From positions 744,001 to 808,000 of the forward strand of contig NW_027138407.1 of assembly GCF_035084215.1 (NCBI RefSeq): a stretch of DNA of 64,000 nt, in the 5' to 3' direction. The position numbers and the translations under genes are program-made. This document shows positions 6,481 to 60,624 of the stretch, piece after piece; the stretch's first letter is position 1; each line of letters begins with the position of its first letter. The notes beneath the pieces were generated by a model. That model was not told where the DNA came from. It searched no databases and worked only from the letters and a program-made list of their open reading frames with translations. This DNA comes from Heptranchias perlo. Taxonomy: Eukaryota.

Positions 6481-7104
6481 CACACCATTAAACATCCTAA
6501 CAAAAACTCAGCCTCTGTGGACGCACCGATACATGACACACATTCTCAGTTGCATTCACTCGACTGTGAATTCTGCAGTCAGGGCAAGCATCAGAATATA
6601 TTGTCCACATGAGTTATTACTTTGTTCCTGAGCATCAGTGTTGCAACTGGAAGTCTTTGAAGATTTTTTTGGCGTTGCTTCATTATATTATCACAGAAAT
6701 ACACTGCGGACTTTCATATTATTTTACCTTGGCCGATTGAATGCAACAGTTAAAATATGTGAGATTATTGATTAGCACTCAAGAACTATACTGGCTAACG
6801 TCAAAAATCCCACTGTACGTGTAGCACAGGGCTTATTAGAAACACTTTCATAAATGCTTGATAGATATACAAAATGCCAGGACCCCTGTAATTTCTCCTG
6901 AAGTAATATAACCATTTATATATATTTCTATTTGATTCGATCCACATATCAAAATTACACACATACAGTTCCTATTCTGCACTGTTTGATGGGCGAACTG
7001 TTTACATTTTTATCATTCAACCCCAAATCAATTAAACATAAATTGGATTATTTTCTACTAAAAGCGATATTGTATTTTAGAGAAGATAAAAGCAACAGAC
7101 TTAC

Positions 7105-7167
7105 TTGGGACTACAGTTAGCCGAGTTCCATTTCCAAATATTAGCTTGTTCCCTGCTGCATTATTCA
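7105..7167 (-). CDS. TRAJ: TCR alpha J segment NNAAGNKLIFGNGTRLTVVP
   Basis: Paralog of 2291-2353; GTAAGT donor; CACAGTG(7168-7174)-12-ACAAAAACT. Confidence 0.95.
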
Positions 7168-8067
7168 CACAGTGCAAAACGTCTCAACAAAAACTATTTG
7201 CACTCTACCGCTGTCTTCTGTTACATGCACGGTTTGTCAAGAGGAATGAGATAGCAATGAGAGGGGGAAAATGGATGCATTTTCTCCTCCCGAGACCAGG
7301 GGTGATGAGGTCGGCAACAGCACCTGTGGTTTCTCCCCATTTAAATTGAGGAAGTCAACACCGACTACGGATATAATCTGGGACATTGCTCACTGACCTA
7401 CATTGGCTCAGGGTCTGGCAACGCTGCGATTAAAAATTCTCACCCTTGTTTTCAAACCTCTCCATGGCCTCGCCCCCTCCCTATTTCTGTAACCTCCTCC
7501 AGCCCTACAACCCCCCGAGGTCTCTGCTCTCCTCCAATTCTGGCCTCTTGCCCATCCCCGATTTTCATCGCTCCATCATTGGCGGCCGTGCCTTCAGCTG
7601 CCCAGCTCTGGAATTCCCTCCCTTAAACTCCCCGGTCTCGACCTCTCTCTCTCCTTCTCCAGAACGCTCCTTAAAACTGACATCCTTACCTGTCTTATTA
7701 TCTCCTTAAGTAGCTCGGAGCCAATTTTTGTTTGATAATCGCTCCTGTGAAGCGCCTTGGGACATTTTACGACATTAAAGGCGCTACAGAAATGCAAGTT
7801 GTTGTTGTAACAGTCACCGTTACAAACTGGACAACATCAAACCATTTGAGAGCTGCAGAATTGTCTCCTTCAGTTACTTAATGTAGAGATCCATAGAACC
7901 AAGGAATTGAACACATCTATTCCTTGCTTCTATTGATCTCTACAATGGGTTGGAATCCCCAGAGTTCCAGAGAATGTTTCAACAGGGAAATAAGCAAACT
8001 GAGATGATTTTGACCCCTTATACTATAGGTCAGATATTAAGCAGTAAATTGACATTTCAGTACTCAC

Positions 8068-8133
8068 TGGGTCGCACGACTAAATTGGTGCCACTTCCAA
8101 ATGTTAGTTTGTAACCTCCACCACCAGATGCCA
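8068..8133 (-). CDS. TRAJ: TCR alpha J segment ASGGGGYKLTFGSGTNLVVRP
   Basis: Paralog of 3255-3320; GTGAGT donor; CACAGCG(8134-8140)-12-GCAAAAATG. Confidence 0.93.
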
Positions 8134-8685
8134 CACAGCGTTACACGCCATTGCAAAAATGCCGAGCCTGGGACCTTCCCCTTATCACTGATGCAGTCCA
8201 TCGAGTCTTTTAACGGCATTGTGACACTTCAAATAATAATCCCGTTTTTTGGACTTATGCAAGGGGCGAAATTTGGATATGGGTTGGGACGCAAAACAGG
8301 CGGTATCACATCAGCCGTCCGGTATTCAGATCAACTGCCTGAATGGAATAATGCGATTCCGTCTGTTTTACGTCCCCGCCGATGACCAATCTCACCCCAT
8401 TCTGTTCTGCAGTTAACACGGGTATTACATCAACCTCATCCTCTTGTCAGTTAGAAATTCACAAGATAACCCGAGAAATGACACTTTCCTATGAATTTTT
8501 CAATGAATAACGTTCTGCATAATGTGTTTGTCTATCATTTTTTTTCTGTCTATCAGGACCAATTTGACTCCACGAAGGGGAATATTTTTTTCGCATTTAC
8601 ATTAAAAAGAGACTCTAAGGCTTCTAGTTTCTCCCTATGTAATTGGCAAAGACAGATTGCTAATGTTTCGAGGCAATGCACTTAC

Positions 8686-8748
8686 TCGGTTCAACAGTAA
8701 GTCTTGTCCCAGGCCCAAATATCTGTTTGAATCCTCCTGCATCTCTCA
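8686..8748 (-). CDS. TRAJ: TCR alpha J segment RDAGGFKQIFGPGTRLTVEP
   Basis: Coding sequence identical to 3877-3939; CACAGCA(8749-8755)-12-ACAAAAACG. Confidence 0.93.
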
Positions 8749-9224
8749 CACAGCATTCGGTCTCATCACAAAAACGTCCACATTTGTAATATGTTTCTGG
8801 TGCCATTTCCGTGTTGTATCGATAGGCATTTCAATACGATCATAAACCCCTGGAAATATTTCCTCTGGAAATTAAACCCTTAAATCTATTCAAATTTCGT
8901 GATAATGCGAATCGTCATCGTATATAACCATTCAATTCTGTGTGGGTCTTGTGATCCATTTATCTATTTATCTGGCGTTTGCTTTTCTCTCCTTCTTTCT
9001 CGATAGGGATGCATAACAATTAATAACTGAATTATCTCCACCCTTTGTTAATTTTTGTACATTCCTGTGTATTTCCTTCAATGTTAAATAGCATATATCT
9101 GTGTGCAGGGAACGTTGGATGTGCAAAAAAAACTATTCCCACTGTCAAATATATAATGCAAGCCTCGAGCTATTTGAGCCAAAATAAATCTTATCATTAA
9201 ATGAATAAAATGCTGGATACTCAC

Positions 9225-9286
9225 TAGGCTCCACTCTAAGTTTTGTTCCTTTTCCAAAGGTTAGCATGCTAACCCCTGAATTTGCC
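9225..9286 (-). CDS. TRAJ: TCR alpha J segment ANSGVSMLTFGKGTKLRVEP
   Basis: Paralog of 4413-4474; GTGAGT donor; CACAGCG(9287-9293)-12-ACAAAAACC. Confidence 0.94.
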
Positions 9287-10811
9287 CACAGCGTTACTCT
9301 CCCTAACAAAAACCTCACCCCCAGATTGCATTAACTCACGCCCAGCAGTTGTCGTTTTCAAGTTACCAATCACAGAATGAATCTACTCTCCTTCTCCATT
9401 TGAAAGAAAACTGAACTTTATGTTAATTAATTGATTTGCTTTCTGCTCTGGAAAATTCGGTTTGTCCATTTTTCCCACTTTTCTTATTGAAGGTCAGCAT
9501 CATGTGAAACAGAGTAAAGCGCAAAGCACAGATTTTTTGTCTCTACATTGCAACGAAGGAACAGGATTAGGTACTCAACAAAAGAGACGGCCTCGGATCA
9601 ATCGCCAAGTGCAACTATTAACACTTTCCCCTATCCCGTCTTCACACCTTATAGCCTACCCGGACCAATGGGCGCCAAATCGTCGGACAGTTTGACTAAT
9701 TGTCCGATCTACTTTCACTTAAGATGCCCCGTCACCACCAAAATGAGTGATAGGGCGCTCATTTCAGCCTGGACTACATTCGGACGCGGATCCCCATTGT
9801 GAATTCAGTCTCCAACTTACTGTAACACCCCATCCCGTAAAGAAGGAATTGATTTGTCTCAATTAATTCACTTTTATTCTCTCAAAGTGAACCCAAACGC
9901 AACTTTGCTGTCCACGGATATAGTCCCAGTTCTGTAGATCGGAAATAGCCCATCCATCAATAAAGCCCGGGTTATTTATTCCGTTTATTGTGCACCATTG
10001 TGTAATACGTGTTATACCGAAATAAGGCCTAATCATTCTCTGTTTACTCTATTAGATTGTTCAGCGCGCCTCCTCCATAGTTAACACAGCCTTAGATACC
10101 TTCACAAAAAACTCATATAAGGCCAGTGATATTTTAACAGTTTGTTTTGTGAACCTCACCAAATCATGCGTGGCTTTAACCGAGTTACGTTCCAATCTCT
10201 GACACCCTTTCTCCCATATCCAGCTATCTATTTCTCTGCTTACCACCTTTTTCTCCCTGTCTCCCAGTTTCCAGCAAAAGCAAACTTGGGTGTAGTTTTA
10301 ACCGAACCCGCCGATCGGAAAACTGGCGCAAACGTCAGTGTTTCGCCCGTTTTACGCTCCGCCCGATTTTACTCTCCGTTAAAGCATTTCTGCTCACTCA
10401 GTGTTACTCAAGATTGCACCGAAACTGCTCCAGCCATTAAAAGGACAGCACGAATTGCATCAGTATGGGCTGGTGCCGAACCCATTTCCCACAGGGAAAG
10501 GAACTTGTCCAAAACTACTGAAGCACCTAGTGTCCGATCACAGAGAGTATCATACCCTTTGTCCGTGGCTCGAATTGAACGCAGGTGCCATAGATGAAAG
10601 GGCAGTGTTTAACTCACTGCCCCACACAGGCCTCCAAGCAGAGGGAGGGGACCTTCACCACCTCTCTCTACAATGGATTTGAATCCAAGTAGGCGGTGCC
10701 TGATCCACTCCCCAGCCATTCCCGCATACAACGCGTGTCGATTTTACTTCGATGGCTTAACAATTGTTTTCAAATGTGAAATTGCTTGCATGTCCCTTTA
10801 ATCCTACTTAC

Positions 10812-10877
10812 TTGGTGCCACAGTCAATGTAGTCCCTGAGCCAAAGATGAGCTTTCCCATTGCACTTCCATACCACA
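10812..10877 (-). CDS. TRAJ: TCR alpha J segment WYGSAMGKLIFGSGTTLTVAP
   Basis: GTAAGT donor; CACGTCG(10878-10884)-12-ACAATAACC. Confidence 0.9.
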
Positions 10878-11387
10878 CACGTCGATAAACACCCGGACAA
10901 TAACCTCAATCATACCACACCATCGCCTCTCACTGCTCATCTTGCTTTATGAAGGAGGAACACAATCTTATCATTCGTTTCACTGGCACAATCTATTGCA
11001 CATTTCACATCTCCAACAATATGGCAATTGATTGTATCAGAAATAATAATTACTTTACCTGTAATATTCGGTTATTAATATATCAATGTTACTAACCACA
11101 CAATAGATCTATCTCCAACTCTATCCCTAATTAGGATATTTTCCTTTGTCCTTTCTTCTGGGCCATACATTTATTTACATAACCTTCGCCTAATTAAATG
11201 CTAAATTTTGTCAATCAGTCTAAAACTGATTGGGGAAAATTCAGCTCACATTGTTATCCGGGTTCATCACCGTTTTAAATATTATGATTCCTGGAACATA
11301 ATGTGCTCAATATTGCAATAGGTGGAACTTTTACAGGTAATATTTGGAGGTTGAATATTTGCCACACAGTGAATTTCCGATACTTAC

Positions 11388-11453
11388 TGGGTCCTACTGA
11401 TAGCTTCGTTCCAGTTCCAAATATTAACTTGTCAGCTACTCCACCATCATTCA
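11388..11453 (-). CDS. TRAJ: TCR alpha J segment NDGGVADKLIFGTGTKLSVGP
   Basis: GTAAGT donor; CACGTTG(11454-11460)-12-ACAAAAACC. Confidence 0.93.
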
Positions 11454-11641
11454 CACGTTGTTAAAGATACATACAAAAACCCCAAGCGGTGCACAGGAAA
11501 TCTAATATAGAATCACACAGCACGGAAAGAAGGCATTTGGCCCATCGTGCCTGAGTCGGCCTTTTGAAATAACTATCCAGTTAGTTCAAATTCCCCGTGT
11601 CCTTCCCACACCTAGCCCTGCAAGTTTGCTCTTTAAATTCT

Positions 11642-11700
11642 TGGCCCGGTCGGAGATCGAACCCGCGATGTTGACGTTATTGCCAACCAAGCTAACCGGC
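11642..11700 (-). pseudogene. tRNA-Ile(AAT)-derived pseudogene or SINE head
   Basis: Minus strand GCCGGTTAGCTTGGTTGGCAATAACGTCAACATCGCGGGTTCGATCTCCGACCGGGCCA resembles vertebrate tRNA-Ile-AAT with an internal deletion; B-box GGTTCGATC retained. Confidence 0.55.
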
Positions 11701-12394
11701 TTGTACTAACTGGCTGTGCGGACGCATTTAAATTACTTTGTCCAATATGTATATTCGTCTTTTTGTTATTCTCCGTAAACATAAAGCAGTAAATTGTAAT
11801 ATCATGGAACTGGACTTGTGCAGGCAATCGATGAGAGACTATATCCTTTTGAATTCATTGTGTAATTTAGAACGATCGGTCCACTATAGTTTCTGAACTT
11901 GGCATCGATTTGAGATCTTTCATATCCAACACATCTCGCCGAAATAGTTTAATCGGTACAAATTTTTTATTTGGTTTCTTCCCAGTACTGTTTTATGGTG
12001 GAAGCCGATACAATAATAACTTTCAAAAGGAGAATTGGATAAAGACTTGAAGGAGAAACATTTGTGTGTCGATCGGGAAAGAGCAGGGGAGTGGGACTAA
12101 TTGGATAGCTCTCTCAAAGTGCTGGCACAGGTACGATGGGCCGAATGGCCTCCTTCTATGCTGTATCATTTTAATGATTCTATGATTACAATTACGCTTG
12201 TATCATTGGGATCAATGCAAGTCTTTCTTTCAATCTGGTTTAAAAAGAAGGCTCACCGCCACCTTCTGAAGGGCAACTAGGGACGAACAATAAATACTAG
12301 CCTTGCCAGCGATGCACATAGCCCCAGAATGAATTTTAAAAAAAAGTTGTGTTGAGGGAGTGAAATGCTAAACAAATTGCAGATGCCAACTTAC

Positions 12395-12457
12395 TCGGCT
12401 CAACAGTCAGTCTAGTTCCACTTCCAAATATGAGTTTCCGTGCTGTAGCATCATTCA
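12395..12457 (-). CDS. TRAJ: TCR alpha J segment NDATARKLIFGSGTRLTVEP
   Basis: GTAAGT donor; CACAATG(12458-12464)-12-ACAAAAACT. Confidence 0.94.
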
Positions 12458-12667
12458 CACAATGCTAAATAGCTTGACAAAAACTATCCCACATGAGATA
12501 TAAAGGCATTTGCATTAACATTCAGTCGAGTGCTCTCTTAACGACGCTACAGTTTTGTTAAGGTCCCATTTTTATAATCAGTCTATTATATCAGTATAAT
12601 TCATATTTAATGGAACTTAACACACACAAACAATACGTTTGAAAGCAGCTTTCAAGGAGATACTTAC

Positions 12668-12727
12668 TGGGTTCGATTGACACCTGAGTCCCGTTTCCAA
12701 ATGTTAGCTTACTGTCTGCGTAATTCA
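12668..12727 (-). CDS. TRAJ: TCR alpha J segment NYADSKLTFGNGTQVSIEP
   Basis: GTAAGT donor; CACAGTG(12728-12734)-12-GCAAAAACT. Confidence 0.95.
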
Positions 12728-12799
12728 CACAGTGCCAAATGCAATAGCAAAAACTATATTGGTAGATAACCCCAAGAGCTTGTTTATATTCAGGAGCAT

Positions 12800-13935
12800 C
12801 GGAACATATGAACGGGAGTGGGCCACTCAGCCCCTCGTACCTGTTCCACTAATCTATTAGGTGATGGCTGATCTGCCCCTCAACTCCATTGCTCCATCTC
12901 CCTTGATATCCTTACCTAACATAGGAATATAGGAACATAGAGACAGGCGTGGACCACTCAGCCCCTCGAGCCTAACCACAGCCTATCGATCTCAATCATC
13001 TGCTGAAGAGAGTTCACAATCTGGGGAAGAGAGTTCTAAATTTCCACCACCCGTTGTGTGAAAAAAGTACTTCCTGATTTCATTCCTATAAGGCCCAAAT
13101 CTAAGTGTAAAATGGTAGCCCCTTGGTTTGGATTTCCCCACCAGAGGAAATAGATTTTTTTCTGCGTCTCCCCTTTCGAATGCCTTTATGGTTTTAAGCA
13201 CCTCGATTAAATCATCCCTCAAACATCTGAATTCCAGGGAACTTTATGCCACCAGTCCTCGTAATTTAACTCCCTGAGCCCCGAAATCATTCTGCGGAAT
13301 CTGCGCTGTAAAACAAATATAGCTTTCCTAAGGCACCGTGCCCAAAACTGAACGCAGTACTCCAGATGGGGTCTGACCAAGGCTCTGTACAATTGAAGCA
13401 TAACTTCCTTACTTTTGCATTCTAGCCTTCGTGAGATTACCGCCAACATTGCATACGCCTTTTCGAATACTTTTTGTACCTGTGCACTAACGTTTGGTGA
13501 TTTGTAAGGCGAAATCGCTTTGCTCCTTCACAGCTCCTTATCGCTCACCATTAAGACAATTATTCCAGTTTGTCTTTCTCAGAGAAAAAGTGGATGATCT
13601 CACACTTTTCGATGTTGAGCTCCATCTGCCACAGTTTTTTCTCCCCACAAGCTTAGTCCGTCTATGTCCCTTTGTAACTTCCTGCTCCCAACTACACAGC
13701 GTACAACCCCTCCTAACAGAGCGTTATCTCAACTCTTTCATCCAAGTCATTTTTATATATATGGTAAGATTTGAGGCATCGGGCATTCCTGGGGAGCAGC
13801 ACTTGTCACATTCCACAAGTCAGGGAACATTCCCCTTTACCCCTACTCCTTGTTTCCTACCTCCCAACCAATTACCAACCCATGTCACAAGGTTAGATCC
13901 AATTCCATGCGCTTTGATTTTTGCCAATATTCTCT
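12800..13935 (-). mobile_element. Degraded CR1-type LINE
   Basis: ORFs with LYRALVRPHLEYCVQFW and RDDLIEVLK..LFPL, typical of the CR1 ORF2 C-terminus. Confidence 0.85.
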
Positions 13936-14454
13936 TTAAAATTAACACTTCCAAAATATCTTTTACACTGCACCTACGCCGTTGTGTCATCGTCCGGTTG
14001 GCACTACTGCTCAGGCGACTTCCTATCCCATTGGCTTTAAGAATGCTGGATGGAGATTCGCTTTTTATTATGTGCTATTGGTACGTAAGTAAAATCGTGA
14101 ATAGGGACTAATTCCCCTTGTTTGTGATTCCTTTAGAAAGTTCATAAGGACAGCGATGCAGATCATGCTAATTGCGTTCAAGAAGATTTCCGCAGTTCCC
14201 TGCTTCTAGCAAACTCGCAAACACACTCCAACCGAGTCTTGTAGCAATAGGGTACAGAGAGAACTTTCTGGAATGCATTTCTCATATTCGTTATACATTC
14301 TTCCTTTTGCTTCCAGGATGGTGGTTTTTACGCATCTTTCTTAGAATGTACCAATATTTTTCTTGTCAAATCCTATTTCGATTAGTGGTCTAGGAGTGAG
14401 TCAAAGTAAAAGCAATTCAAAGTGAAGCTATATCAATAACTGGACAGCTGTAGG

Positions 14455-14850
14455 GACATAGGAAGAACAGAGGAACAGGGGTAGGCCACTCAACATTTCG
14501 AGCCTATTCCGCCGTTCAAGTAGACCATAGATGATTAGCCCCATGTACCCGCCTTGGTTCTGTATCCCTTGCCTAACAAAAATCTACCAATCTCAGTTTT
14601 GAAATTTTCAATTGACCCCCAGCCCTCAACAGCTTTTTAGGGGAGAGAGTTCCAGATTTCCACTCCTCTTTGTGCGAAGAAGTGATTCCTGACATCACCC
14701 CTGAACGACCTGGCTCTAATTTTAAGGTTATGCCCCCTTCTTCTGGACTCTCACACCAGAAGGAATAGTTTCTCTCTATCTACCCCATCGAATCCTTTAA
14801 TCATCATGACCAATTCAATTGGATCTTCACTTAATCTTTTATACCAGAGG
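14455..14850 (-). mobile_element. CR1-type LINE 3' fragment
   Basis: Reverse complement of the CR1 3' end seen at 1060-1476. Confidence 0.75.
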
Positions 14851-14975
14851 GAATTTATACTTTCTGTTGATCGCTCTCTTTATAATTAACAACATTTACG
14901 TACGCTTTTATCTATTTTTTTATTCAAACGAAAATAAAGCGTCTAAATATTCCCAAACATGAACGGTCTACTTAC

Positions 14976-15041
14976 TGGGTGCCACAATCAGTTTGCTCCC
15001 GCCGCCAAACCTAAGCTTCCCAGTACCGGTTTCAAAGCTTT
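14976..15041 (-). CDS. TRAJ: TCR alpha J segment SFETGTGKLRFGGGSKLIVAP
   Basis: GTAAGT donor; CACAGTA(15042-15048)-12-ACACAAAGC. Confidence 0.9.
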
Positions 15042-15621
15042 CACAGTATTTAACAAGGTGACACAAAGCTCCCCGCGTTACTCAGTGTCTAACAGCAGTT
15101 TTCATATGTCCTTCTGCATCGCTTACACGAGCAGATTTTTCGGTCACACAAAAAAATCCGTTTACCTTAATTAACAACGAAGAGGAAGAATTACTCTCTG
15201 CGCTATATGTAGCAGGTCGAACATGAATGCGTCATTCGGCTAAAGTTAGCCACCAGGCCAATCTCCAACAATACATTTCTGGTGTCGCTTTACATAGCGG
15301 TCTGAGATATTGCATAGAGTCTACAGCACAGAAACAGGCCCTTCGGCCCAACTGGTCCATGTCGGCATTTATGCCCCACAGGAGCCCCCCTACCACCCAT
15401 CTTCATCTAACTATTGTTCCTTAGTTATGCTTTAAGCTGATTGGCAAGACATGTCGATAGAGTTAAATTGTGGTTTCGAAACGTGTAGTATCGCCTTTAA
15501 AGCATAATTGACATTGATTTATTGTCCTTCTTTTCATGATTAGCAAATATCGCATGTAACATAAAATCTAACCTTTGGACATTTGGATTAGTTGGTTGCA
15601 ATAAGGTTAGGATATACTTAC

Positions 15622-15686
15622 TGGGCAAGACCAAGAGTTTAGTTCCATTGCCGAAGAGAAGCTTGTAGCTTCCACCTTGATAATCG
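15622..15686 (-). CDS. TRAJ: TCR alpha J segment DYQGGSYKLLFGNGTKLLVLP
   Basis: GTAAGT donor; CACGGTA(15687-15693)-12-ACAAAAACC. Confidence 0.94.
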
Positions 15687-16556
15687 CACGGTATCACAAT
15701 GCAGGACAAAAACCTCTCCGCCAGATAGCTACACATATGCATCCACCGATTCATCCATCTCCATCTCTTCATTACCTACTTTTCTCATTCCATTCACGTC
15801 TCATCTTATTTTTCGTTATTTTGGTTTCTAAGCTAAGCTCGATTCCATCAAGTCATTCCCTTACTCTTTATGAAATATATTACCTGATGTTTGATAAGAA
15901 CTTTTCAAACTTAAAAACAAAACTCACATTCTGTACATGTCAAAATACAGTTCAGTGAAATCTGGTTTTAATTCGAGACAACACAGGTACAGTATGTTCA
16001 AATCACCTGTGTGTCAGGTTGCAGCGCATGTGTTTTGAACTATTTCACGTAGCATCGAACTGAGTGTACAGGTACCCCTTTATTAGAATTTCCCCCAATG
16101 CTGCCCTATGTGTTTTGTACACGATGAAGAAATGGTAAATAATATTATTACTAATATGATTATTATTTGAATTAAGCATAATAGTCAGACACCCTTCAGT
16201 CAAGAAAGTTCACGTTATATTTGAATGAATATACCACTGATTTTACACAATGTCTAACATCCTTCTATTTATTTGACAAAGTAATGGGGAGATCGTTCTC
16301 TCAACATCCGATTATAATAATCACTGGGCGTACACTCAGTTCGATGCTATATGAAATAGTTCAAAACACATGAGCTGCAACCTGACACACAGGCGATTTG
16401 CACATACTGTACCTTCTATTTGTTATTTTACATGTAGCAATCATGTTTCTATTCATCATTTTTCTGGTATTCTTTAACGCGCACTGAACGTTATCGTTTC
16501 TGATCCCCCCACCACCACACACACAAACAGAAATATTCTTTATCTTATCAACATTA

Positions 16557-16862
16557 CTTCGAGAACTCGGAGTTCCTCCAACTCTGGCCTCTTGTGCATC
16601 CCCCACTGCCTTCGCCCCACCATTGGCGGCCGTCCCTACAGCCCTCTAAGCTCTGGAATTCCACCCCCCCCAACCTCTTTGCCTCCCGGCCTCGCTCTCT
16701 TCTCCTTTAAGATTTTGCTTACAAATTACCTCTTTGACCAAACTATTGGCCACCTGTCCTAATGCCTCCTTCTTTGGCTTGTTCGTCAGATTGCGCTCCT
16801 GTGAAGAGCCAGGAGGCGTTTTACTACATTATAGGTGCTACATAAATGCAAGCTGTTGTTGT
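16557..16862 (+). mobile_element. L2-type LINE 3' fragment abutting a J splice donor
   Basis: CATTGGCGGCCG..GCTCTGGAATTC body and AAATGCAAGCTGTTGTTG tail, as in 2575-2995. Confidence 0.7.
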
Positions 16863-16868
16863 ACTTAC

Positions 16869-16931
16869 TGGGTTCTACAGAGAGTTTGGTCCCTCTTCCA
16901 AATGTGAGCTTGTCACCTGCTCCTTGATTCA
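16869..16931 (-). CDS. TRAJ: TCR alpha J segment NQGAGDKLTFGRGTKLSVEP
   Basis: GTAAGT donor; CACAGTA(16932-16938)-12-ACAACAACA. Confidence 0.92.
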
Positions 16932-17269
16932 CACAGTAACAAGCACCATAACAACAACATAACCAGTAGACAACCTCTTAATTGTTATAGGAATTACTGT
17001 CAATCATTGTGACGATGACGAGGATGATAATAATAAAGAAGGAAATTGACATTTTATAGCGTCTTGAAAGACCTCAGGGCGCCCATAGCGCTTCAAAGTC
17101 AACTGGGGTACTTTATTTCAAGTGTAGTCATAATAATAAGTCAATTTCCTCGATACAATCTTCATCATCTCCTTCATGCATTTTGGATTTAGCCCTCTTT
17201 ATTATTTGTTTTCACTGTTATTGCTGTTCCATTGAATTTCAGCGTACATTTCGGACCAATCAATCCCAA

Positions 17270-17455
17270 GGGGGTAATTTTAACTTTGGGAGGTAGAATA
17301 AATTGGGCGATATCGAATTTGCCGCCCATTATACGCCCGCCTGGTTTTCTCCTTCATTGCCTTTAATGGCAAGGAAAATCAGGCGAGGTGTATAATGGAC
17401 GGCAAGTCCTATATCGCCCATGTTACGCTGGAGCCCAAAGTTAATATTATCCCCA
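17270..17455. mobile_element. Short palindromic MITE-like element
   Basis: GGGGGTAATTTTAACTTTGGG ... CCCAAAGTTAATATTATCCCC terminal inverted repeats with nested internal inverted repeats. Confidence 0.6.
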
Positions 17456-17567
17456 TTGTGTGCACGACAATCGATAGATAAACGTGGGCAATGGCGCCGC
17501 CGTACGTTCTACGTAAAGGTTCGCAACTACCAACTGCACTTCAGAATGTTTCATCCTACTGTTTTAC

Positions 17568-17995
17568 AACAACAACTACTTGCATTTATACAGCGGCCTG
17601 TAACATAGTAAAACGGCCGAAGGCTCGTCACAGGCGCTTATCAGACAATATTTGACATCGAGCCACATACAGAGATATTAGGGCAGGTCAAAGAGATAGG
17701 TTTTAAGGAGCGTCTTAAAGGAGGAGGGAGGTTTAGGGAGGGAATTCCAGAGCTTGGGGCCTGGGCAGCTGAAGGCAACGGTAGAGCGATGAAAAGGGAC
17801 ATGACCATGGAGGGATTTGAAAACAAGGATGAGGATTTTAAAATCGAGGTGCTGCCTGACCGGGAACCAATGTAGGCCAGAGGGCACAGGGGGGTGATGG
17901 CTGAACGGGGCATGATGCGAGTTAGGATACAGGGCAGGAGAGTTTTGAGATAAACTCAAGTTTACAGAAGGTAGCAGGTTTATCTCACTAGAGCA
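17568..17995 (-). mobile_element. L2-type LINE 3' fragment
   Basis: ORF LHWFPVRQHLDFKILILVFKSLHG..KLWNSLP..FKTLLKTYLF. Confidence 0.85.
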
Positions 17996-18169
17996 TTCTG
18001 AATTGGGCCTTGTAAGGTCGCATAATTCGACGGAAATGTACAATTGTTGTGCGAGCTGGAGCCTCGGTACAGTCTCGGCATTGTTTCGAGTAAATAACTT
18101 CGAGGATGGACTGAACAAACGGATAATCTGGCAGTTAGCTTCACCGAAAGGACGCTTAAGTCTACTTAC

Positions 18170-18235
18170 TGGTTTGCACTGTCAGTGTTGTCCCGCTCCC
18201 AAAGCTAGTCTTCCATCCTCCTGTACTTATAGTCA
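18170..18235 (-). CDS. TRAJ: TCR alpha J segment TISTGGWKTSFGSGTTLTVQT
   Basis: GTAAGT donor; CACAGCA(18236-18242)-12-ACAAATAGC. Confidence 0.9.
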
Positions 18236-18673
18236 CACAGCAGTACACGCCCTGACAAATAGCCCCTCCAGTTTTGAAGTGACACCTATCCCAAACTATC
18301 CCAGCTACACAAGAAAGACCATGGGATGGTACTCGCTGACCACATCTCCGCTACATTTATATCCTTATACGAAAGGGAACCGCTTAACTGTTGGACGGAA
18401 ATCATTCAAGACCCGGTGCAATTACAAATCATGAAAGCATTGGCTCGCCATAGCCTTATTTTGGCCTGTGTAGGCACCCATTTGTGCTTCTCAGAGAGGT
18501 CTGAGGTGGAACTTTTGGTTTGCTCCAGAAAAGGGTCTTTGAACCATAGTTAAAAAAAAGAGACGACGCGACCGAAATGGGCATTTCAACTGACTAGAAC
18601 AAGTTCGATTTAATACTATAACGGCTCTGATTAGAGCCAATACAGCGCTACTTTATAGTAGAACAACACTTAC

Positions 18674-18739
18674 TTGGCTCCACCACCAGTTTGGTTCCAC
18701 TTCCAAATATTAGTTTGAGACTAGCTGTTCCAGAAAGCA
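18674..18739 (-). CDS. TRAJ: TCR alpha J segment LSGTASLKLIFGSGTKLVVEP
   Basis: GTAAGT donor; CACGGTG(18740-18746)-12-ACAAAAACC. Confidence 0.95.
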
Positions 18740-19577
18740 CACGGTGCTGCAAACCTTAACAAAAACCCTGGGCACGAGACCAGATGGGTAATTTAAATAA
18801 TAGATCATTGAAAATTCTGTAATTGTAGTTTTGTGAATTTCTTTCTTACTTTCATCCTTTCTTTGTTATCTTTCTTTCGAACCTTAGACGCTTTCAGCAC
18901 AGAAAGAGTCCATTCGGCGCTCCTTGTCCGTGCAGGCGCTTAGCTACAGCAATCCAGAACTAATCCCACTTCCCCGTTCTCTTCCTACAGCTCCTGATTG
19001 TACCTCTGCTTCAAACTTCCGCCTATTTTCCAAGATACAGCGGCCTCTGCCTCAGCAACTCCCTGTGGCAAAACACTCCATGTTCTATCAACCTGCCGCT
19101 TATAGGCATTTCTCCCACCTTCTTCAACTTGAAATTGGTGCTCCCCACCCCCCTACTCCTTGTCATCGATTACCCAACCACAGGAAATAATTTGACCTAA
19201 TTCAGTCTATTAAAGCACTTCATTTAGGGCAGGAAATTGGACATGAATTTAGCTTTGAGGTTAGGATCAGATCAGCCATGATCTTATTGAATGGCGGAGC
19301 AGGCTCGAAGGGCCGATTGGCCTACTCCTGCTCCTATTTCTTATGTTCTTATAATTTTATAAACGTCTATTAAATTTCCGCAGCCTTCTCCGATTCACTG
19401 GAAATTGACTCATTATCGTAGTTTCTCCTCATAACGAATCCTCGATGTCATCTATCTCTCTTCATCCTTTTCTCCCATCAGTTATGTCAATAGTTGGAAT
19501 CCAATTATTTTATACGATGGTATTGGGATATACACCTTATGCATTATTTACACTAGAAGAAACAGAATAATACTCAC

Positions 19578-19641
19578 TTGGTATCACTAACAGTTTGGTT
19601 CCATTTCCAAAATTAAGCTTATTAACTATTGTTCCATAACT
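19578..19641 (-). CDS. TRAJ: TCR alpha J segment SYGTIVNKLNFGNGTKLLVIP (intact ORF, defective heptamer)
   Basis: GTGAGT donor; GACAGTG(19642-19648)-12-ACAAAAATC; the first C of the essential CAC is mutated. Confidence 0.88.
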
Positions 19642-20562
19642 GACAGTGTCACAGACCTTGACAAAAATCCAACAGTAGCGCAATTAAATCTGTTGCCTTT
19701 GGTGCAATAAGTTGCAAATTGCAGAGTTATTTCATTATTGATCAATTTGCGGTCACGTCTGCAAATTGAACTATGGATAGGTACAACAGCCATCGTGTTT
19801 TGAAAGGCTCATTCACTCGGACTTGATTAAGGCAATGATTTAGTTTTCATATTGCCGAATGAAAGATTTCAATTTATTTTACTTTGCTGTCTGATTTGAA
19901 CGTAGCTGTTCGCTACATTAGAAACACATTTTTATTCGCCATAAATTACTTACAATGCCATATCACATTGCTTTTTGTTTCCAGCCTCAGCACAGCTGAG
20001 AAAGAATCCCATACAAATAAGGAAATTTGTGCTCTCGCATACAGCCGGCACGGACTCGATGGGCCGAATGGTCTTCCCTTCCGTGCTGTAACCTGTCTAT
20101 GATTCTATGATTTAATCGACTGTCTGTTTTGAATTTTAATGGCGTTTTGATAAGGTGAGTAATGAAAGGTTATTTCCTCTGTTTGGCGAGTCAGTAAGGA
20201 GATGTCATCAATTTAAGACCTGTCACTAAGATAATTAGGAAGGAGGTTGGAATGCTTGTCAGAGGTAAGGTTGACAGCAGAGAGCATCGTAGGTTTTAAG
20301 GGGAAATTGAATAAACATTTGAGGCAAAGTGAGGTGCAGGGTTTTGGGAAGGCTACAGTGCGTGGCGGTTAATATTGCATTGTTTTAGAGAAGAATGCGG
20401 AGGGGATCGATGGGCCGAATGGACTCTCACTGTGCCTTAAAATGTCATGGTTCCATAGTTCCCTAGTTAATGTCTCCATTATTTCCAGCATAGATCCCCC
20501 CCCCCCCATAACATCACTATGCCGTTTATTGTTTGGGCAACAAAGATGACTAAAGTACTCAC

Positions 20563-20630
20563 TCAGCTCCACTATCAGTTTGGTTCCACTTCCAAACATT
20601 AGTTTGCTCGTTACTGCTCCATACTCCACA
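20563..20630 (-). CDS. TRAJ: TCR alpha J segment VEYGAVTSKLMFGSGTKLIVEL
   Basis: GTGAGT donor; CACAGTG(20631-20637)-12-TCAAAAACC. Confidence 0.94.
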
Positions 20631-21444
20631 CACAGTGCTAGATGTCTAATCAAAAACCACGGCCTACTAAGTAAAAGCCAACGCGACTGTTGTGCCTGAT
20701 TGGCTCGGTATAGATCTGTCTGCTCTGTGTATCAACGTATCCTTCCCTCTGCAATAAGTTTCAACTAATTGTGATTCTACCCTCACCGCTACTCAGTTAC
20801 AACCGTTAGATTCTAGAACATAAATCATAGCAACACTTTAGTCTTGTGTAGTCCAGAGTTTTTGCTGCTTCCCATTCTGACTGAGGTTCCATCGTCAACA
20901 GGTAGCTTCATGAAACTCTTTCTATAACTGTCACAAGGCTAAGAATTTAGTTGACAGCTATGCTTAAAGAGATGGTGAATACTCGCGTGAAGTTTGCGAC
21001 TGTTCTGCGCTTCTTAGCCAGACCTCAAAGATGTTACTTTATAACTTTCAGAACTTAGAGTTTCGCTAGACGCAGCAAAAAGACGAAATCTACAGCAACA
21101 TTTCTGTCCCGTTGGAGCAAGCGAATTTTAACCGGACTGGCAGGGCGGGACTCCCGCCTGATCGGCTGGAACGCTGGTTTTACACCCCGCCCGATATTAC
21201 TCACCATTGATTAAAATCGATTGGGGTGTAAAACCAGCGTCCCACCCTGATTCCATCAGTTTCCCGACGGGCTGGTTAGGTTAATATTGCCCACGGAGGT
21301 CAGAGGAATTCTTCCCGTGTAGCTACTGAGCACTGAATAGGCCCGGCATCTTTTGATTGGAATATGAATTATATTCCGTATGAGCTGGGTTTGCCCTCGC
21401 GGTGATGTTTGATCAGCGCATCCCATAATAAGTGAGATCCTTAC

Positions 21445-21501
21445 CAGGAATTACGTGGAGTTCGGTTCCACTGCCAAAGATAAGAGTATAGCCGTCGTTC
21501 C
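21445..21501 (-). CDS. TRAJ: TCR alpha J segment NDGYTLIFGSGTELHVIP
   Basis: GTAAGG donor; CACGGCA(21502-21508)-12-GCAAAAACC. Confidence 0.9.
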
Positions 21502-21813
21502 CACGGCAGCAACACCCATGGCAAAAACCGTGCCTGGGCCCAGTTCATTTAACAAAACTCATGTCAAACGCAGGAAGATTTTGGGAGGTCGCTATTTGTT
21601 AGGACACCATAAACACAGCAGGAATATCTCCTTTATTTTCTGCTGGTTCGGAGCACCCTCGCTAGAAATAACGAACAAGTTCCCGCTAAGTTCACGATGT
21701 GCTTAAAGCGTAGAGATCCGAAAAAATCCCTCTCATATAACACACATGGTATTGTTGATTCATATTTATAGTAGTTGCAATCTTCTTCATTTATGCTATC
21801 TGACTTTACTTAC

Positions 21814-21850
21814 TGCGTGGAGCAGTCCTGAACGTTAGCTTGGGGGATAT
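21814..21850 (-). pseudogene. TRAJ: Possible TRAJ relic (PKLTFRTAPR + donor)
   Basis: KLTF followed by a phase-1 GTAAGT donor; FGXG lost; a SINE fragment occupies the RSS position. Confidence 0.35.
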
Positions 21851-22243
21851 TTTGCATCGACCTGAAAGGGCAGACGAGGCCTCGGTTTTATGTCTCATCC
21901 GAAAGACGGCGCTTTCCGACAGTGCAGTACTCCCTCAGTACTGCATTGGGGTATCATCTTAGAATTTTACACTCAAGCCTCTGGAATGGGACGACTAACC
22001 CATAACCCTTTGACCTAAAGGCGATTGTGCTACCAACTGAGCTGACCTTCAACTTTGGCCGACTTGTGCATTTTATCTGCACATCAGAAAGTTTTCAATG
22101 TTGCTAACTTTTACATATTAAGATGGCATTTGGTATTCCTATATTCAGAATCAAGGCGACCTGCAAATAAATTAACCCGCGTTCTGCACTATAATTTTAT
22201 ATATTTATTAATTGTGCCAGTCAAACAGCGAAGAAGTACTCAC

Positions 22244-22300
22244 TGGGATTGACGATGAGCCGTGTCCCCTTGCCGAAAGTTAGCTTGTCGTTATTGTATG
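22244..22300 (-). CDS. TRAJ: TCR alpha J segment YNNDKLTFGKGTRLIVNP
   Basis: GTGAGT donor; CACAATG(22301-22307)-12-ACAAATACA. Confidence 0.93.
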
Positions 22301-22519
22301 CACAATGATACATCTCCGCACAAATACATATAGTCACCTTCACCATTGACACTGGTTGCCTTAATGTGTTAGGACCAATTATATGTGTTGGAGGATACCT
22401 AGGTTGTCCTGCAACGTGAACACGTTCAGTCCACAGCGTGGCAATTAACGAAATGTTAAGGAAATTGCAAAAAAAAATTACCAGTCGAACAATGAGTCTA
22501 GTTAAAAATAAGACGTGCA

Positions 22520-22970
22520 TTACTAGAGCGCTTTTCACCACCTCACGGCGCCCCAAAGCGCTTTACCGCCAATTAAGTGCTATTTGAAGTGTAGCCACTT
22601 TTATAATGTGGGAAATGTGGCAGCCGATCTGCGCACTGTAAAGTTCCACAAACAGCAATGCGATGAATGACCAGAGAGTCTGTTCTTATGCGTTGATCTA
22701 GGTATAAATATTGATCAGAGCACCGGAGAGAATTTCCCTGCTCTTCTTCAAAATAGTGCCATGGGATCTTTTGTACCCACCTGCGAGGGCAGGCGGGGCC
22801 TCGATTTAACGTTTTATCCCAAGGACGACACCCCCGCCAGAGCATCATTCCCCCAATAAGGCACCAGAGTGTCAGCCTAGATTTTGTGCTCAAGTCGCTA
22901 GAGTGGAATTTGAACCCATGACTTTCTGACTCAGAGGCGAGAGTACTACCACTGAGTCACGGCTAACACC
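22520..22970 (-). mobile_element. tRNA-derived SINE with L2-type tail
   Basis: Minus-strand head GACTCAGTGGTAG..GGGTTCAAAT (A/B boxes); body shared with copies at 34005-34395, 47330-47745 and 62265-62700. Confidence 0.75.
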
Positions 22971-23147
22971 ATAGTCCCGTCACGCTGTTGTGTTACAGGA
23001 GTTTTCTAATATCGTTGAACCGCTCGCAGGAATGCGCTCAATGTCAGGGTAAATGACGTTACTCCTTCTACTTCTTCACTAGCGTTTTAAAATAACATCC
23101 CTTTTAGATATGACTAAGCAGGAAAGAAACAGAGTGTAATAACTTAC

Positions 23148-23210
23148 TGTGTTCTACAGTCAGTCTGGTTCCTCCGCCGAAAAGAAGCTCCTTACCACCC
23201 GCTGTATTTA
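23148..23210 (-). CDS. TRAJ: TCR alpha J segment NTAGGKELLFGGGTRLTVEH (most 5' TRAJ)
   Basis: GTAAGT donor; CACAGTG(23211-23217)-12-ACAAAATCA. Confidence 0.93.
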
Positions 23211-44823: not shown

Positions 44824-44934
44824 CTTAAAATAACCACACTCTGGCCGTCAGCAGGACATTGAAGGCAACGCTCTTAAAAAAGAGAACTCTCAATCCCAAC
44901 ACCGTCAAAGACAGAAAATTTGCCCTCGGTAGAT
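44824..44934 (-). CDS. TRDC: TRDC transmembrane exon (D)LPRANFLSLTVLGLRVLFFKSVAFNVLLTARVWLF*
   Basis: ttacag acceptor; TCR alpha/delta-type TM with intramembrane R and K and the FN motif; TAA at 44825-44827 then G|GTAAGA donor. Confidence 0.95.
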
Positions 44935-47762: not shown

Positions 47763-48080
47763 CAGCTCCAGATTGTCGGGCGTCGCTTGCTACGGGAGAG
47801 TCTTTATTGTCTCTTGCCTCACATGTGACATTTACTGATTGTTCGTTTCGATTGAAAGAGAGGAATCCGGAGCTTCTATAGAGCCCGTTGTTTAACAAGT
47901 GACTGGATCCTGTGAAGTTGTTTTTTTCGTTAGTCGTCGTCTTCAAGAAGAACTCGAAATCTTTGGGGAAGAATTCCGACACCAGACACACCGCCGCCGT
48001 GTCGACGCTGCCTCCACCCCCAATTGGTATGGCGGGTGGGTAAAAGACCGACAAGGTGGGATTTTTCTGAGGTTGGTCCT
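47763..48080 (-). CDS. TRDC: TCR delta constant Ig-C1 exon DQPQKNPTLSVFYPP..AAVCLVSEFFPK..GLYRSSGFLSF..VNVTCEAR..SGA
   Basis: taattttcag acceptor and G|GTGAGT donor, phase 1/1, 318 nt open; two C1 cysteines, CL..F.P motif, NFT/NVT sequons; resembles shark TRDC as recalled; lies downstream of a 12/23 D and a J cluster and upstream of a long J array. Confidence 0.92.
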
Positions 48081-48980: not shown

Positions 48981-49044
48981 TCAAATCTACATTGAGTGTT
49001 GTTCCATTTCCAAATGCAAGAACATCTGTATATCCACCGCCAAA
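48981..49044 (-). CDS. TRDJ: TCR delta J segment FGGGYTDVLAFGNGTTLNVDL
   Basis: GTAAGT donor; CACGGTG(49045-49051)-12-ACAAGGGCC (weak nonamer). Confidence 0.85.
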
Positions 49045-50041: not shown

Positions 50042-50103
50042 TTGGTTCCACTATGAGTTCCGTTCCAGCTCCGAACGTCAGTGGGTCTCTGTAACTATAG
50101 CTC
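50042..50103 (-). CDS. TRDJ: TCR delta J segment SYSYRDPLTFGAGTELIVEP
   Basis: GTAAGT donor; CACCGTG(50104-50110)-12-ACAAATTCC. Confidence 0.9.
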
Positions 50104-50685: not shown

Positions 50686-50745
50686 TTGTTTCCACAGTTA
50701 CTTTGGTACCAGCTCCAAATATGAGCTTGTCGATATTCAAGTTCA
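50686..50745 (-). CDS. TRDJ: TCR delta J segment NLNIDKLIFGAGTKVTVET
   Basis: GTAAGT donor; CACATCA(50746-50752)-12-ACAAAAGCT. Confidence 0.88.
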
Positions 50746-55948: not shown

Positions 55949-56008
55949 TGGGTTCTACAATGAGTTTGGTGCCACTTCCAAAGATAAGCTTTTCAGTTCT
56001 GTAGTCAG
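55949..56008 (-). CDS. TRDJ: TCR delta J segment DYRTEKLIFGSGTKLIVEP
   Basis: GTAAGT donor; CACAGTT(56009-56015)-12-ACAAAAACA. Confidence 0.92.
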
Positions 56009-56720: not shown

Positions 56721-56782
56721 TTGGCACAACTGTCAGTTGGGTCCCGCTGCCGAAGGTTAGTTTCTCAGTATAGTCATAATTA
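56721..56782 (-). CDS. TRDJ: TCR delta J segment NYDYTEKLTFGSGTQLTVVP
   Basis: GTAAGT donor; CACAGTA(56783-56789)-12-ACAGAAACC. Confidence 0.92.
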
Positions 56783-56900: not shown

Positions 56901-57430
56901 AATCAACCTCCCATTGTCCGAGAAATTCTCGCCCTAGGAATTAAACTACCAACAGGTGCATTCTGTGTTTATCAAGCTTGGTGCCCTGTTTAGTCATAGC
57001 CCAATACAAACATATGGGACACGGTATCCTTCACTTTAGGCTCAGTGGGTAGCAATCTTGTCTCTGCGTCAGAAGGTTGTGGGCGCAAACTAGCAAAAGA
57101 ACCGGAGGGGAAATGAAGGGAATCTTTTTACTCCGTTTTTTACTCAGTTTTACTCATAACTTTGTTACGACCTGGAATACACTGCCTGAAAGGATGGTGG
57201 AAGCAGATTCAATAGTAAATTTCACAAGGAAATTGAATACATACTTGGAAAGGAAAACATTGCAGGCAATGGGGAAAGAGCAAGGGAAGTGGGATTAATT
57301 TGATTGCTCTTTCAAAGAGCTGGCGCAGGCACAATGGGCCGAATGGCCTCCTTCTGTGCTGTATGATTCTATGATTTTATGATTGAAAGGACACAAAATC
57401 GCTCATGTGCATTTAACAGTTCATACTTAC

Positions 57431-57482
57431 TTGGTTCCACTATGAGTTTCGTCCCTTTACCGAAGATAAGCTTATCAGTGAA
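57431..57482 (-). CDS. TRDJ: TCR delta J segment FTDKLIFGKGTKLIVEP (TRDJ1-like)
   Basis: GTAAGT donor; CACGGTG(57483-57489)-12-GCAGAAACC. Confidence 0.94.
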
Positions 57483-57584
57483 CACGGTGCTAAATCTTTG
57501 TGCAGAAACCGCCTGTCACACAACGTATCTGCCACCATGAGTACCTTAGCGTTCCTAACTATCTGTGTTTTTCACGACACAACA

Positions 57585-58607: not shown

Positions 58608-58652
58608 TTGGCTCCACAGTCAGCTTGGTCCCAGTTCCGAATATTAGCGGGG
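58608..58652 (-). CDS. TRDJ: TCR delta J segment PLIFGTGTKLTVEP (heptamer only, no nonamer)
   Basis: GTGAGT donor; CACAGTG at 58653-58659; expected nonamer position reads TAGGTTATA. Confidence 0.75.
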
Positions 58653-58685
58653 CACAGTGATACATCTACAGTAGGTTATACTCAC

Positions 58686-58746
58686 TCGGCTCCACAGTTA
58701 ACCTGGTCCCGCTACCGAAGGTTAGTTTCTGAAGGCTGCTTGTTCA
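58686..58746 (-). pseudogene. TRDJ: TRDJ pseudogene TSSLQKLTFGSGTRLTVEP (no RSS)
   Basis: Intact FR4 and GTGAGT donor; no CAC heptamer or nonamer upstream. Confidence 0.75.
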
Positions 58747-59091
58747 AGCATTGATTGTAAAATCCAATTCACTTTCCTTCATTAATTTCAACCTCTACAC
58801 AAATCATGAACTGCATTGATGGTAAGTATAAAAACTGCGAAATCTTAGAACTAGAACCAGAGGAAATCTCCACCTGCCACCCCCCACCCCCTATAAGCGT
58901 AACTCAAATTTGAGGTTTTGGAAAGGCTGTAGGGCTCCCTAAATTGTCCTTGTTGTAGTTTTTGCATCTGAAACATGGCTTATCATTTCAAACTGATTCC
59001 TTAGCATTAGAACTAAGGCACGCAGAAAAAAAATTAGATTCATTTGCAGACTTGAAATCGTATCGCAAATATTCTGGTGGAATACACTTAC

Positions 59092-59155
59092 TGGGTTCCA
59101 CTATCAACGTGTTCCCATTTCCAAATGTCGCCTTCGCACTCTTACCGATAACTTT
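59092..59155 (-). pseudogene. TRDJ: TRDJ pseudogene VIGKSAKATFGNGNTLIVEP
   Basis: FGNG motif and GTAAGT donor; no recognisable CAC heptamer. Confidence 0.7.
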
Positions 59156-59600: not shown

Positions 59601-59666
59601 CCGCTTCTATAATTACTCTGGTCCCACTTCCGAATATTAGTGTAGTCGTACGATCCCAATAATCTG
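59601..59666 (-). CDS. TRDJ: TCR delta J segment DYWDRTTTLIFGSGTRVIIEA
   Basis: GTAAGT donor; CACAGTG(59667-59673)-12-CCAGAAACT. Confidence 0.9.
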
Positions 59667-60172: not shown

Positions 60173-60235
60173 TGGGTTCCACAATCAGCCTGGTTCCATT
60201 CCCAAACGTTAACTTTTCATCCTGCCCAAATATAA
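60173..60235 (-). CDS. TRDJ: TCR delta J segment IFGQDEKLTFGNGTRLIVEP (D-proximal)
   Basis: GTAAGT donor; CACACCG(60236-60242)-12-ACAAGATCC. Confidence 0.88.
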
Positions 60236-60568
60236 CACACCGTTTAATCCTACAACAAGATCCCTTGGCATCTCCTCCACATCTCCCGGTGACTGGTGTT
60301 CTTGTTCCAGAAGGGTAATACTAATAAGTAAACTAGACATGTCCTTATTCTAAGGTCGTCTTGCAGTAGTTCCCGCAGTTGGACCCGGCAATAAGTATCC
60401 CGGAGAAATCAAGCTGAAAAGAATCGAAAATGGGAACGGTCCGGGGGGTAATCGTTGCTTGATTCTAACCGGGCCATCCCGGGGGAGGGGGTGTTGAGCG
60501 TGGTGTTGTACTGTTCTGTGTAGGTAGAAGGTTATTGTACGAGCGCATAAGGAAATTCAATTACTGTG

Positions 60569-60583
60569 CGTATACCCCAGTCC
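60569..60583 (-). CDS. TRDD: TCR delta D segment GGACTGGGGTATACG
   Basis: 5' 12-RSS (+ strand CACAGTG 60584-60590, 12 bp, ACAAAAACT 60603-60611) and 3' 23-RSS (+ strand GGTTATTGT 60530-60538, 23 bp, TACTGTG 60562-60568); open in all three frames (GLGYT, DWGI, TGVY). Confidence 0.95.
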
Positions 60584-60624
60584 CACAGTGATACAGCTCA
60601 GCACAAAAACTGTTCACTTGCTGC

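What the first reader, a model, noticed from the sequence alone, without database searches (positions are those of the whole stretch)
57431..57510. J-delta nearly identical to human TRDJ1
Seen: TDKLIFGKGTKLIVEP in a short 52-nt segment. Recalled human TRDJ1: TDKLIFGKGTRVTVEP, giving 13 of 16 identical residues, including the CDR3-forming TDKL and a similar length. With the TRDD3-like D, the germline parts of the dominant human delta junction (D3-J1) appear to exist in a shark, implying very deep constraint on CDR3-delta.
Basis: partly seen in the sequence, partly recalled or inferred. Interest (0 to 1): 0.7.

Follow-up and report, generated by a model that had tools for sequence, protein, structure and literature searches.

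The report
Ancient shark TCR-delta joining segment
This is an intact, spliced joining segment of a shark T-cell receptor delta gene that matches the human delta joining segment at 13 of 16 amino acids; much of that match is shared by all such segments, but the rest likely marks an old delta-type family kept from sharks to mammals, probably for folding and chain pairing rather than for a shared antigen.

Summary
Observation confirmed. A 52-nt J (minus strand, 57482-57431; 12-RSS, GT donor) lies between the one D found and a C-delta gene, and an RNA-like contig joins it to C-delta. It matches the J of solved human delta chains at 13/16, the best of 61 J-like segments in 94 kb. The number alone is weak: the other shark Js' consensus scores 12/16, three shark Js score 12, and human TRAJ34 scores 12 and also carries TDKLIF. 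Independent support comes from elsewhere: an acid-K-L stem occurs in 5 of 8 shark delta Js versus 5 of 48 alpha Js, and in 15 of 38 delta-type versus 0 of 15 alpha-type chains retrieved without the motif, including sturgeon, coelacanth, tortoise, birds and platypus (14/16). Axolotl lacks it. Best reading: an ancient delta-type J family, several copies in this shark, likely under structural constraint. One-to-one orthology, dominant use and an antigen-driven D3-J1 junction are not shown.

The parts
57431..57482 (-). TCR-delta J coding segment, 52 nt, FTDKLIFGKGTKLIVEP (the finding)
   Evidence: spliced to C-delta in run X1; 13/16 to human delta J
57483..57510 (-). 12-spacer recombination signal of this J (nonamer GGTTTCTGC, heptamer CACCGTG; 3 mismatches to the recalled consensus)
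57425..57430 (-). splice donor GTAAGT, 34 nt from the FGXG Phe as in the published J pattern
60530..60611 (-). the one D-delta found: 15-nt G-rich coding part 60583-60569 between a 12-RSS and a 23-RSS
   Evidence: window plus 40 kb upstream scanned
60173..60235 (-). D-proximal J-delta (DEKLTF type); joined to C-delta with its germline upstream DNA in run X2
59601..59666 (-). J-delta, no acid-K-L motif
58608..59136 (-). three J-like segments with poor or missing RSS (likely degenerate); left out of the 56-segment counts
56721..56782 (-). J-delta, TEKLTF; neighbour and likely family member
   Evidence: 35 of 49 nt identical to the finding's J
55949..56008 (-). J-delta, TEKLIF; closest relative of the finding's J in the locus (14/16 aa, 39 of 49 nt)
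50686..50745 (-). J-delta, IDKLIF; 12/16 to human delta J and also hits human delta chains first in PDB
50042..50103 (-). J-delta
48981..49044 (-). C-proximal J-delta
47763..48080 (-). C-delta Ig-domain exon (CLVSEFFP fits the published TRDC signature CLXXXFXP)
44824..44934 (-). C-delta transmembrane exon
1604..23210 (-). J-alpha array (25 segments in the window, continuing beyond it to C-alpha at G000:C240:717751); used as internal control

Best explanation
This is an intact, spliced shark TCR-delta J segment that likely belongs to an ancient delta-type J family (T/A-D/E-K-L-I/V-FG), probably kept since the jawed-vertebrate ancestor because the motif forms the C-terminal stem of CDR3-delta and the last beta-strand that pack against the gamma chain. 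Shown: RSS, donor, position between D and C-delta, splicing to C-delta, 13/16 identity, enrichment of the motif in delta over alpha Js. Inferred: RAG joins the D 23-RSS to this 12-RSS (established V(D)J rule); common descent of the motif rather than repeated origin; selection on protein packing. About nine of the 13 shared residues are the general alpha/delta J framework; the informative ones are T, D, the K of FGKG and E. The shark holds three adjacent T[DE]KL Js, so the relation to human TRDJ1 is likely many-to-one.
For: Locus anatomy. Contig of 78 nt in run X1 covers 57431-57479 with no difference and continues into the first 29 nt of the C-delta exon. Best of 61 shark J-like segments against the human delta J and the only one of 56 with TDKL. 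T[DE]KL in 3 of 8 delta vs 0 of 48 alpha Js (Fisher p 0.002); [DE]KL 5 of 8 vs 5 of 48 (p 0.003). Panel retrieved with two shark delta chains whose Js lack the motif: [DE]K[LM] in 15 of 38 delta-type vs 0 of 15 alpha-type rows, named as catshark, smoothhound, bamboo shark, sturgeon, coelacanth, tortoise, loon, duck, goose, platypus, galago. Salmon's single TRDJ is DKLTFGKAINLIVEP, 11/15 to this J, joint best of 56; 7 of the 11 shared codons differ at the third base (my count by eye), pointing to protein-level constraint. Opossum TCR-mu J 12/16. Shortest of 56 shark Js (52 nt); chicken TRDJ1 is also 52 nt by coordinates. Replacing the whole human J part DKLIFGKG abolished surface assembly of a V-gamma4/V-delta1 receptor (PMC3138283 passages).
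Against: The segment is the third most consensus-like of 49 non-redundant shark Js; the consensus of the other shark Js is itself 12/16 to the human J. Margin over rivals is one residue: human TRAJ34 12/16, three shark Js 12/16 to human, one shark J-alpha 13/16 to this J. DKLIFG also occurs in 2 shark J-alpha and a salmon TRAJ. The motif was chosen after seeing the data; panel rows are not independent (duplicates, many from one shark genus, one Ig light chain and two rows without a readable J among the 38). Both axolotl TRDJ lack it, as do four frog gene models; trout has A for D. None of six duplicated delta cassettes on the same contig keeps a paralogue of this J while all six keep paralogues of three other Js. 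The assembly experiment replaced the FGXG too and did not hold for V-gamma9/V-delta2. A 16-residue segment cannot give a supported tree.
Confidence: 0.62

Rival explanations
1. Regression to consensus: an ordinary shark J-delta that happens to sit near the general alpha/delta J consensus, so it matches any consensus-like foreign J; TDKL arose independently, as it did in human TRAJ34 and TRDJ1.
For: Third most central of 49 shark Js; consensus 12/16; best-of-60 chance 0.31-0.49; TDKLIF in human TRAJ34; a catshark J reaches 13/16 through other columns.
Against: Does not predict delta-over-alpha enrichment in the shark locus (p 0.002-0.003) or in the vertebrate panel, nor that the best match is also a delta J and the shortest of 56 (post hoc).
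Confidence: 0.28
2. One reading: D plus this J rebuild the dominant human D3-J1 junction, conserved because CDR3-delta must bind an ancient shared ligand.
For: First ten residues identical to human; shark D is G-rich and ends in ATAC-G, like salmonid TRDD2/3 ending in ATAC; peptide and cell-binding data implicating the J flank in PMC3138283.
Against: Human TRDD3 not retrieved; only one shark D found, so no D choice; the T is trimmed in some solved human chains (3omz); shark has eight good Js; usage share unmeasured; axolotl has no TRDD and no such J; residues lie at the loop base, not its tip (established knowledge).
Confidence: 0.08
3. Artefact: human or other contaminating DNA in the assembly.
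For: None beyond the peptide likeness.
Against: Single hit in the genome inside a continuous shark-type TRA/TRD locus; spliced to the local C-delta; 39 of 49 nt shared with a neighbouring shark J.
Confidence: 0.01

Closest known systems
Human TRDJ1 (as the J of solved delta chains 1hxm, 8zjy, 3omz and others; the gene name is recalled)
   Same: 13 of 16 residues, TDKLIFGKGT and VEP; delta position; 12-RSS
   Different: three framework residues; the shark has eight good J-delta with three T[DE]KL members against four human TRDJ; usage share unknown
Platypus, tortoise, bird, coelacanth and sturgeon delta-type Js (P0147, P0125, P0145, P0150, P0069, P0200)
   Same: T[DE]K[LM][IV]FG[KS]GT stem; 11-14 of 16 identical to this J
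   Different: single gene models, not complete germline sets; delta identity assigned here by C-domain motif
Salmonid TRDJ (PMC8559430, passages and Supplementary Data 7, 8)
   Same: short segment, DKL, FGK, LIVEP; 11/15
   Different: FGKA instead of FGXG; only TRDJ of the species; trout lacks the D
Human TRAJ34 (PMC13158186 table passages; MAV36 alpha chain)
   Same: TDKLIFG; 12/16
   Different: alpha J, longer 5' end, different framework end
Shark TRA/TRD locus (PMC12227049, PMC10322711, PMC6795676 passages)
   Same: V-D-Jdelta-Cdelta-Jalpha-Calpha translocon with IgH-like V segments near D
   Different: no statement on J-delta sequence conservation in the passages seen; the main nurse-shark papers were not held

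Membership tests
TRDJ (TCR-delta joining segment) | 12-spacer RSS 5' of the coding end | tested here: met
TRDJ (TCR-delta joining segment) | FGXGTX[LV]X[VI] motif with donor 34 nt from the Phe | tested here: met
   pattern from PMC10322711 methods
TRDJ (TCR-delta joining segment) | lies between D and TRDC, upstream of the TRAJ array and TRAC | tested here: met
TRDJ (TCR-delta joining segment) | spliced to C-delta in transcripts | tested here: met
   1 of 4 runs of one sample; RNA status of the run is the tool's guess, but the joint removes a GT-AG intron
TRDJ (TCR-delta joining segment) | seen in a rearranged V-D-J junction | tested here: inconclusive
   contig stops at 57479, 3 nt short of the coding end, with no upstream letters
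One-to-one orthologue of human TRDJ1 | human TRDJ1's best match among shark Js | tested here: met
   13/16 vs at most 12 for 60 others; margin one residue
One-to-one orthologue of human TRDJ1 | best match among all human TRDJ and TRAJ | tested here: inconclusive
   PDB ranks delta chains first, TRAJ34 12/16; the full human J set was not available
One-to-one orthologue of human TRDJ1 | single copy, no equally related paralogues | tested here: not met
   three adjacent T[DE]KL J-delta; 56008 shares 14/16 with this J
One-to-one orthologue of human TRDJ1 | phylogenetic support or conserved order through intermediate lineages | not testable with these tools
   16 residues; no vertebrate genomes searchable except the window's own
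Ancient delta-type T[DE]KL J family (proposed here) | motif enriched in delta over alpha Js in several vertebrate classes | tested here: met
   post hoc motif, non-independent rows
Ancient delta-type T[DE]KL J family (proposed here) | present in all gnathostome lineages | tested here: not met
   absent from both axolotl TRDJ and four frog gene models
Dominant D3-J1 junction of human delta chains | D homologous to TRDD3 | tested here: inconclusive
   human TRDD3 not retrieved; G-rich D ending ATAC shared with salmonids
Dominant D3-J1 junction of human delta chains | majority share of the delta repertoire | not testable with these tools
   only assembled contigs were available; they cannot rank segments

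The most novel reading that the evidence does not exclude
A short T[DE]KL J is the primordial TCR-delta joining segment, preferentially used from sharks to humans, and with the G-rich D it gives gamma-delta T cells a germline-encoded CDR3 surface for a ligand as old as jawed vertebrates.
Probability: 0.1. Interest if true: 0.7.

Novelty: new member of a known kind. Interest (0 to 1): 0.36.

Why it matters
J segments turn over quickly, so a delta-specific J motif traceable from sharks to mammals would be a rare fixed point in CDR3-delta and names two residues (the acid and the lysine before LIF) that can be mutated in human gamma-delta receptors to ask whether they serve pairing or ligand binding. 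As it stands it is a modest comparative point: one residue above the generic J background, with support from a small panel.

Tried and rejected
Ranking J usage from RNA: (13.1 kb) was swamped by repeats; one search gave one contig in X1 (depth 122; the C-exon contig had 450 and the D-J60235 contig 31) and none in X2-X4; the tool says contig depth cannot rank and absence is no proof, so neither is used as evidence. No run was on record as RNA. PDB search with the C Ig exon returned antibody chains and did not type the chain; the transmembrane exon did. A protein-collection search with the 26-residue J was not run (one search was a parameter error). Protein searches returned gene models, not nurse-shark cDNA sets. 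Human TRDD3 was not found in print by motif. Nurse-shark papers (Criscitiello 2010, Deiss 2019, Ott 2021) were not held. Duck supplement too large; chicken FASTA files unreadable; PMC10322711 supplements: 12 searched without a hit, file 15 searched, files 13, 14, 16-19 not searched. The C-delta hinge exon was not found by a simple scan. No structure or complex was predicted: it would not resolve side-chain roles. Contamination rejected.

Full report
Observation. The plus-strand frames show nothing; on the minus strand 57482-57431 is a 52-nt J coding segment, F-TDKLIFGKGTKLIVEP, with a 12-spacer RSS (57510-57483) and donor GTAAGT. Human J length and human TRDD3 came from no call.

Locus. Read on the minus strand the order is V segments (upstream stretches, two nearest ones IgH-like), one D at 60583-60569 with 12- and 23-RSS (the only one found in the window and 40 kb upstream), twelve J-like segments of which eight have a good RSS, a C exon at 48080-47763 and a transmembrane exon at 44934-44824 whose first 12 of 22 PDB hits are human delta-type chains, then a J array (25 in the window) and C-alpha at G000:C240:717751. 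This is the published 5'-trdc-(traj)n-trac-3' layout with its C signatures (PMC10322711, method passages). Nearest C-domain relatives are annotated shark proteins. In 1 of 4 runs of one sample a 78-nt contig covers 57431-57479 without differences and runs on into the first 29 nt of the C exon, so the segment is spliced to C-delta. It is a working J-delta by every feature tested except a full V-D-J junction.

How much does 13/16 mean? I catalogued 61 J-like segments over 94 kb, 56 with RSS score 5 or better (8 delta, 48 alpha; five dropped for poor RSS, four of them on the delta side). The finding's J is the best match to the human delta J, but three others reach 12/16, the consensus of the other 48 non-redundant Js reaches 12/16, and nine of the shared columns (K, L, I, F, G, G, T, V, P) are carried by 46-100% of shark Js. 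A column-independent null gives P(13 or more) of 0.006-0.011 per segment, 0.055-0.096 for best of 9 and 0.31-0.49 for best of 60. The segment is the third most central of 49. Human TRAJ34 carries TDKLIF (PMC13158186, table passages) and scores 12/16; one shark J-alpha scores 13/16 to this J; a salmon TRAJ has DKLIFG. On identity alone the finding is close to ordinary.

What argues for more than consensus. The informative residues are T, D, the K in FGKG and E (10-44% among other shark Js). T[DE]KL occurs in 3 of 8 delta and 0 of 48 alpha Js (p 0.002), [DE]KL in 5 of 8 and 5 of 48 (p 0.003). A panel was gathered with two shark delta chains whose own Js lack the motif and filed by C-domain motif: [DE]K[LM] in 15 of 38 delta-type and 0 of 15 alpha-type rows. 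The 38 include one Ig light chain, two rows without a readable J and duplicates (two of the 15 are sturgeon repeats); one alpha row has DKV; the motif was chosen after looking. Carriers are named as platypus (14/16 to this J, 13 to human), tortoise (13, 15), galago (13, 14), loon (12, 12), coelacanth (12, 11), sturgeon (11, 11), catshark (12, 13), plus duck, goose, smoothhound and bamboo shark; the 11 alpha rows score 6-11 against the human J. Salmon's only TRDJ (PMC8559430, passages and supplements) is 11/15 to this J, tied for best of 56 with a J-alpha; opossum TCR-mu J is 12/16. This J is the shortest of the 56; chicken TRDJ1 spans 52 nt by coordinates, sequence not seen (PMC10972964 supplement).

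Limits. Both axolotl TRDJ lack the motif and axolotl has no TRDD (PMC12529555, passages and Table 1 supplement); four frog gene models and two marsupial delta cDNAs use other Js; trout has A for D. In the shark the neighbours at 56782 and 56008 are TEKL, the latter 14/16 and 39 of 49 nt identical, so the relation to human TRDJ1 is likely many-to-one. Six duplicated C-delta cassettes on the same contig keep paralogues of J60235, J59666 and J49044 but none of this J. The shark D is G-rich and ends like salmonid TRDD2/3, which fits a general D-delta character; with one D found there is no choice of 'D3'.

Mechanism. By established V(D)J rules the D 23-RSS joins this 12-RSS, trimming and N addition reshape the 5' end, and splicing adds C-delta. 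From general TCR structure (recalled) TDKLI is the descending stem of CDR3 and FGXG-strand G packs in the V-delta/V-gamma interface. Seven of 11 codons shared with salmon differ at the third base (by eye), so the constraint is on protein. Replacing the human J part DKLIFGKG blocked surface assembly of a V-gamma4/V-delta1 receptor but, per the same paper's discussion, not of V-gamma9/V-delta2 (PMC3138283, abstract and passages); that test is coarse because it removes FGXG. I put 0.62 on an ancient delta-type family under structural constraint, 0.28 on convergence to consensus, 0.08 on a ligand-driven D-J junction.

Literature. Motif searches found no paper with DKLIFG and shark and five papers with four motif variants, none on cartilaginous fish by title or abstract start (listing only except PMC3138283 and PMC8559430). 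The main nurse-shark TCR-delta papers were not held and several supplements could not be read, so prior description cannot be excluded. Also seen as passages only: PMC5931798, PMC13433984, PMC12227049, PMC5278385, PMC3457774, PMC2275272, PMC13149839, PMC8514952, PMC6795676; none gave shark J-delta sequences. Earlier scan notes: none near this place, none with 'trdj1'; two described the miniclusters.

Verdict. Real, functional, new member of a known kind. Interest 0.36.

Noticed in passing
G000:C240:1160155-1476831 (L017-L022, L024-L035): Six further C-delta-like exons (59-62% to the window's), each in a cassette: NAR-type V, D (12/12, seen in five), NAR J with 23-RSS, supporting V, own Js and own C. 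A TCR-mu-like layout; already noted by the scan.
   Followed up: partly
L024, L026, L028, L030, L032, L034, ends of the supporting V: In 6 of 6 cassettes the supporting V ends in the last bases and 3' RSS region of the window's D (77-84% over 70 nt), suggesting a germline V-D join before the cassettes multiplied.
   Followed up: partly
G000:C240:817680 and 823043 (L002, L003): The two V segments nearest the D end in YYCAR, IgH-like, as described for shark TCR-delta-associated Ig-like V.
   Followed up: no
window 60580-60173 joined to 48080-47763: Run X2 holds a 1329-nt contig of unrearranged DNA from the D through the first J spliced to C-delta, a likely sterile germline transcript.
   Followed up: no
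window 60584-60611: The D's 5' spacer and heptamer resemble the AVYHC-coding end of the cassette V segments, the known embedded-heptamer pattern (recalled).
   Followed up: no
window 58608-59136 and 55378-55441: Four J-like segments with donors but poor or absent RSS, two of them 78 nt apart in tandem; likely decaying J-delta copies.
   Followed up: no
window 1604-9286 and L010-L011: The J-alpha array contains recent block duplications with identical or near-identical Js about 4.8 kb apart.
   Followed up: no
window 45400-47300: A long tandem repeat with open frames sits in the intron between the C-delta Ig exon and the transmembrane exon; the hinge exon was not located; an N run lies at 45222-45351.
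   Followed up: no
window 23300-44800: No inverted V segment was found between C-delta and the first J-alpha by an RSS plus YYC scan; the interval is filled with LINE fragments.
   Followed up: partly
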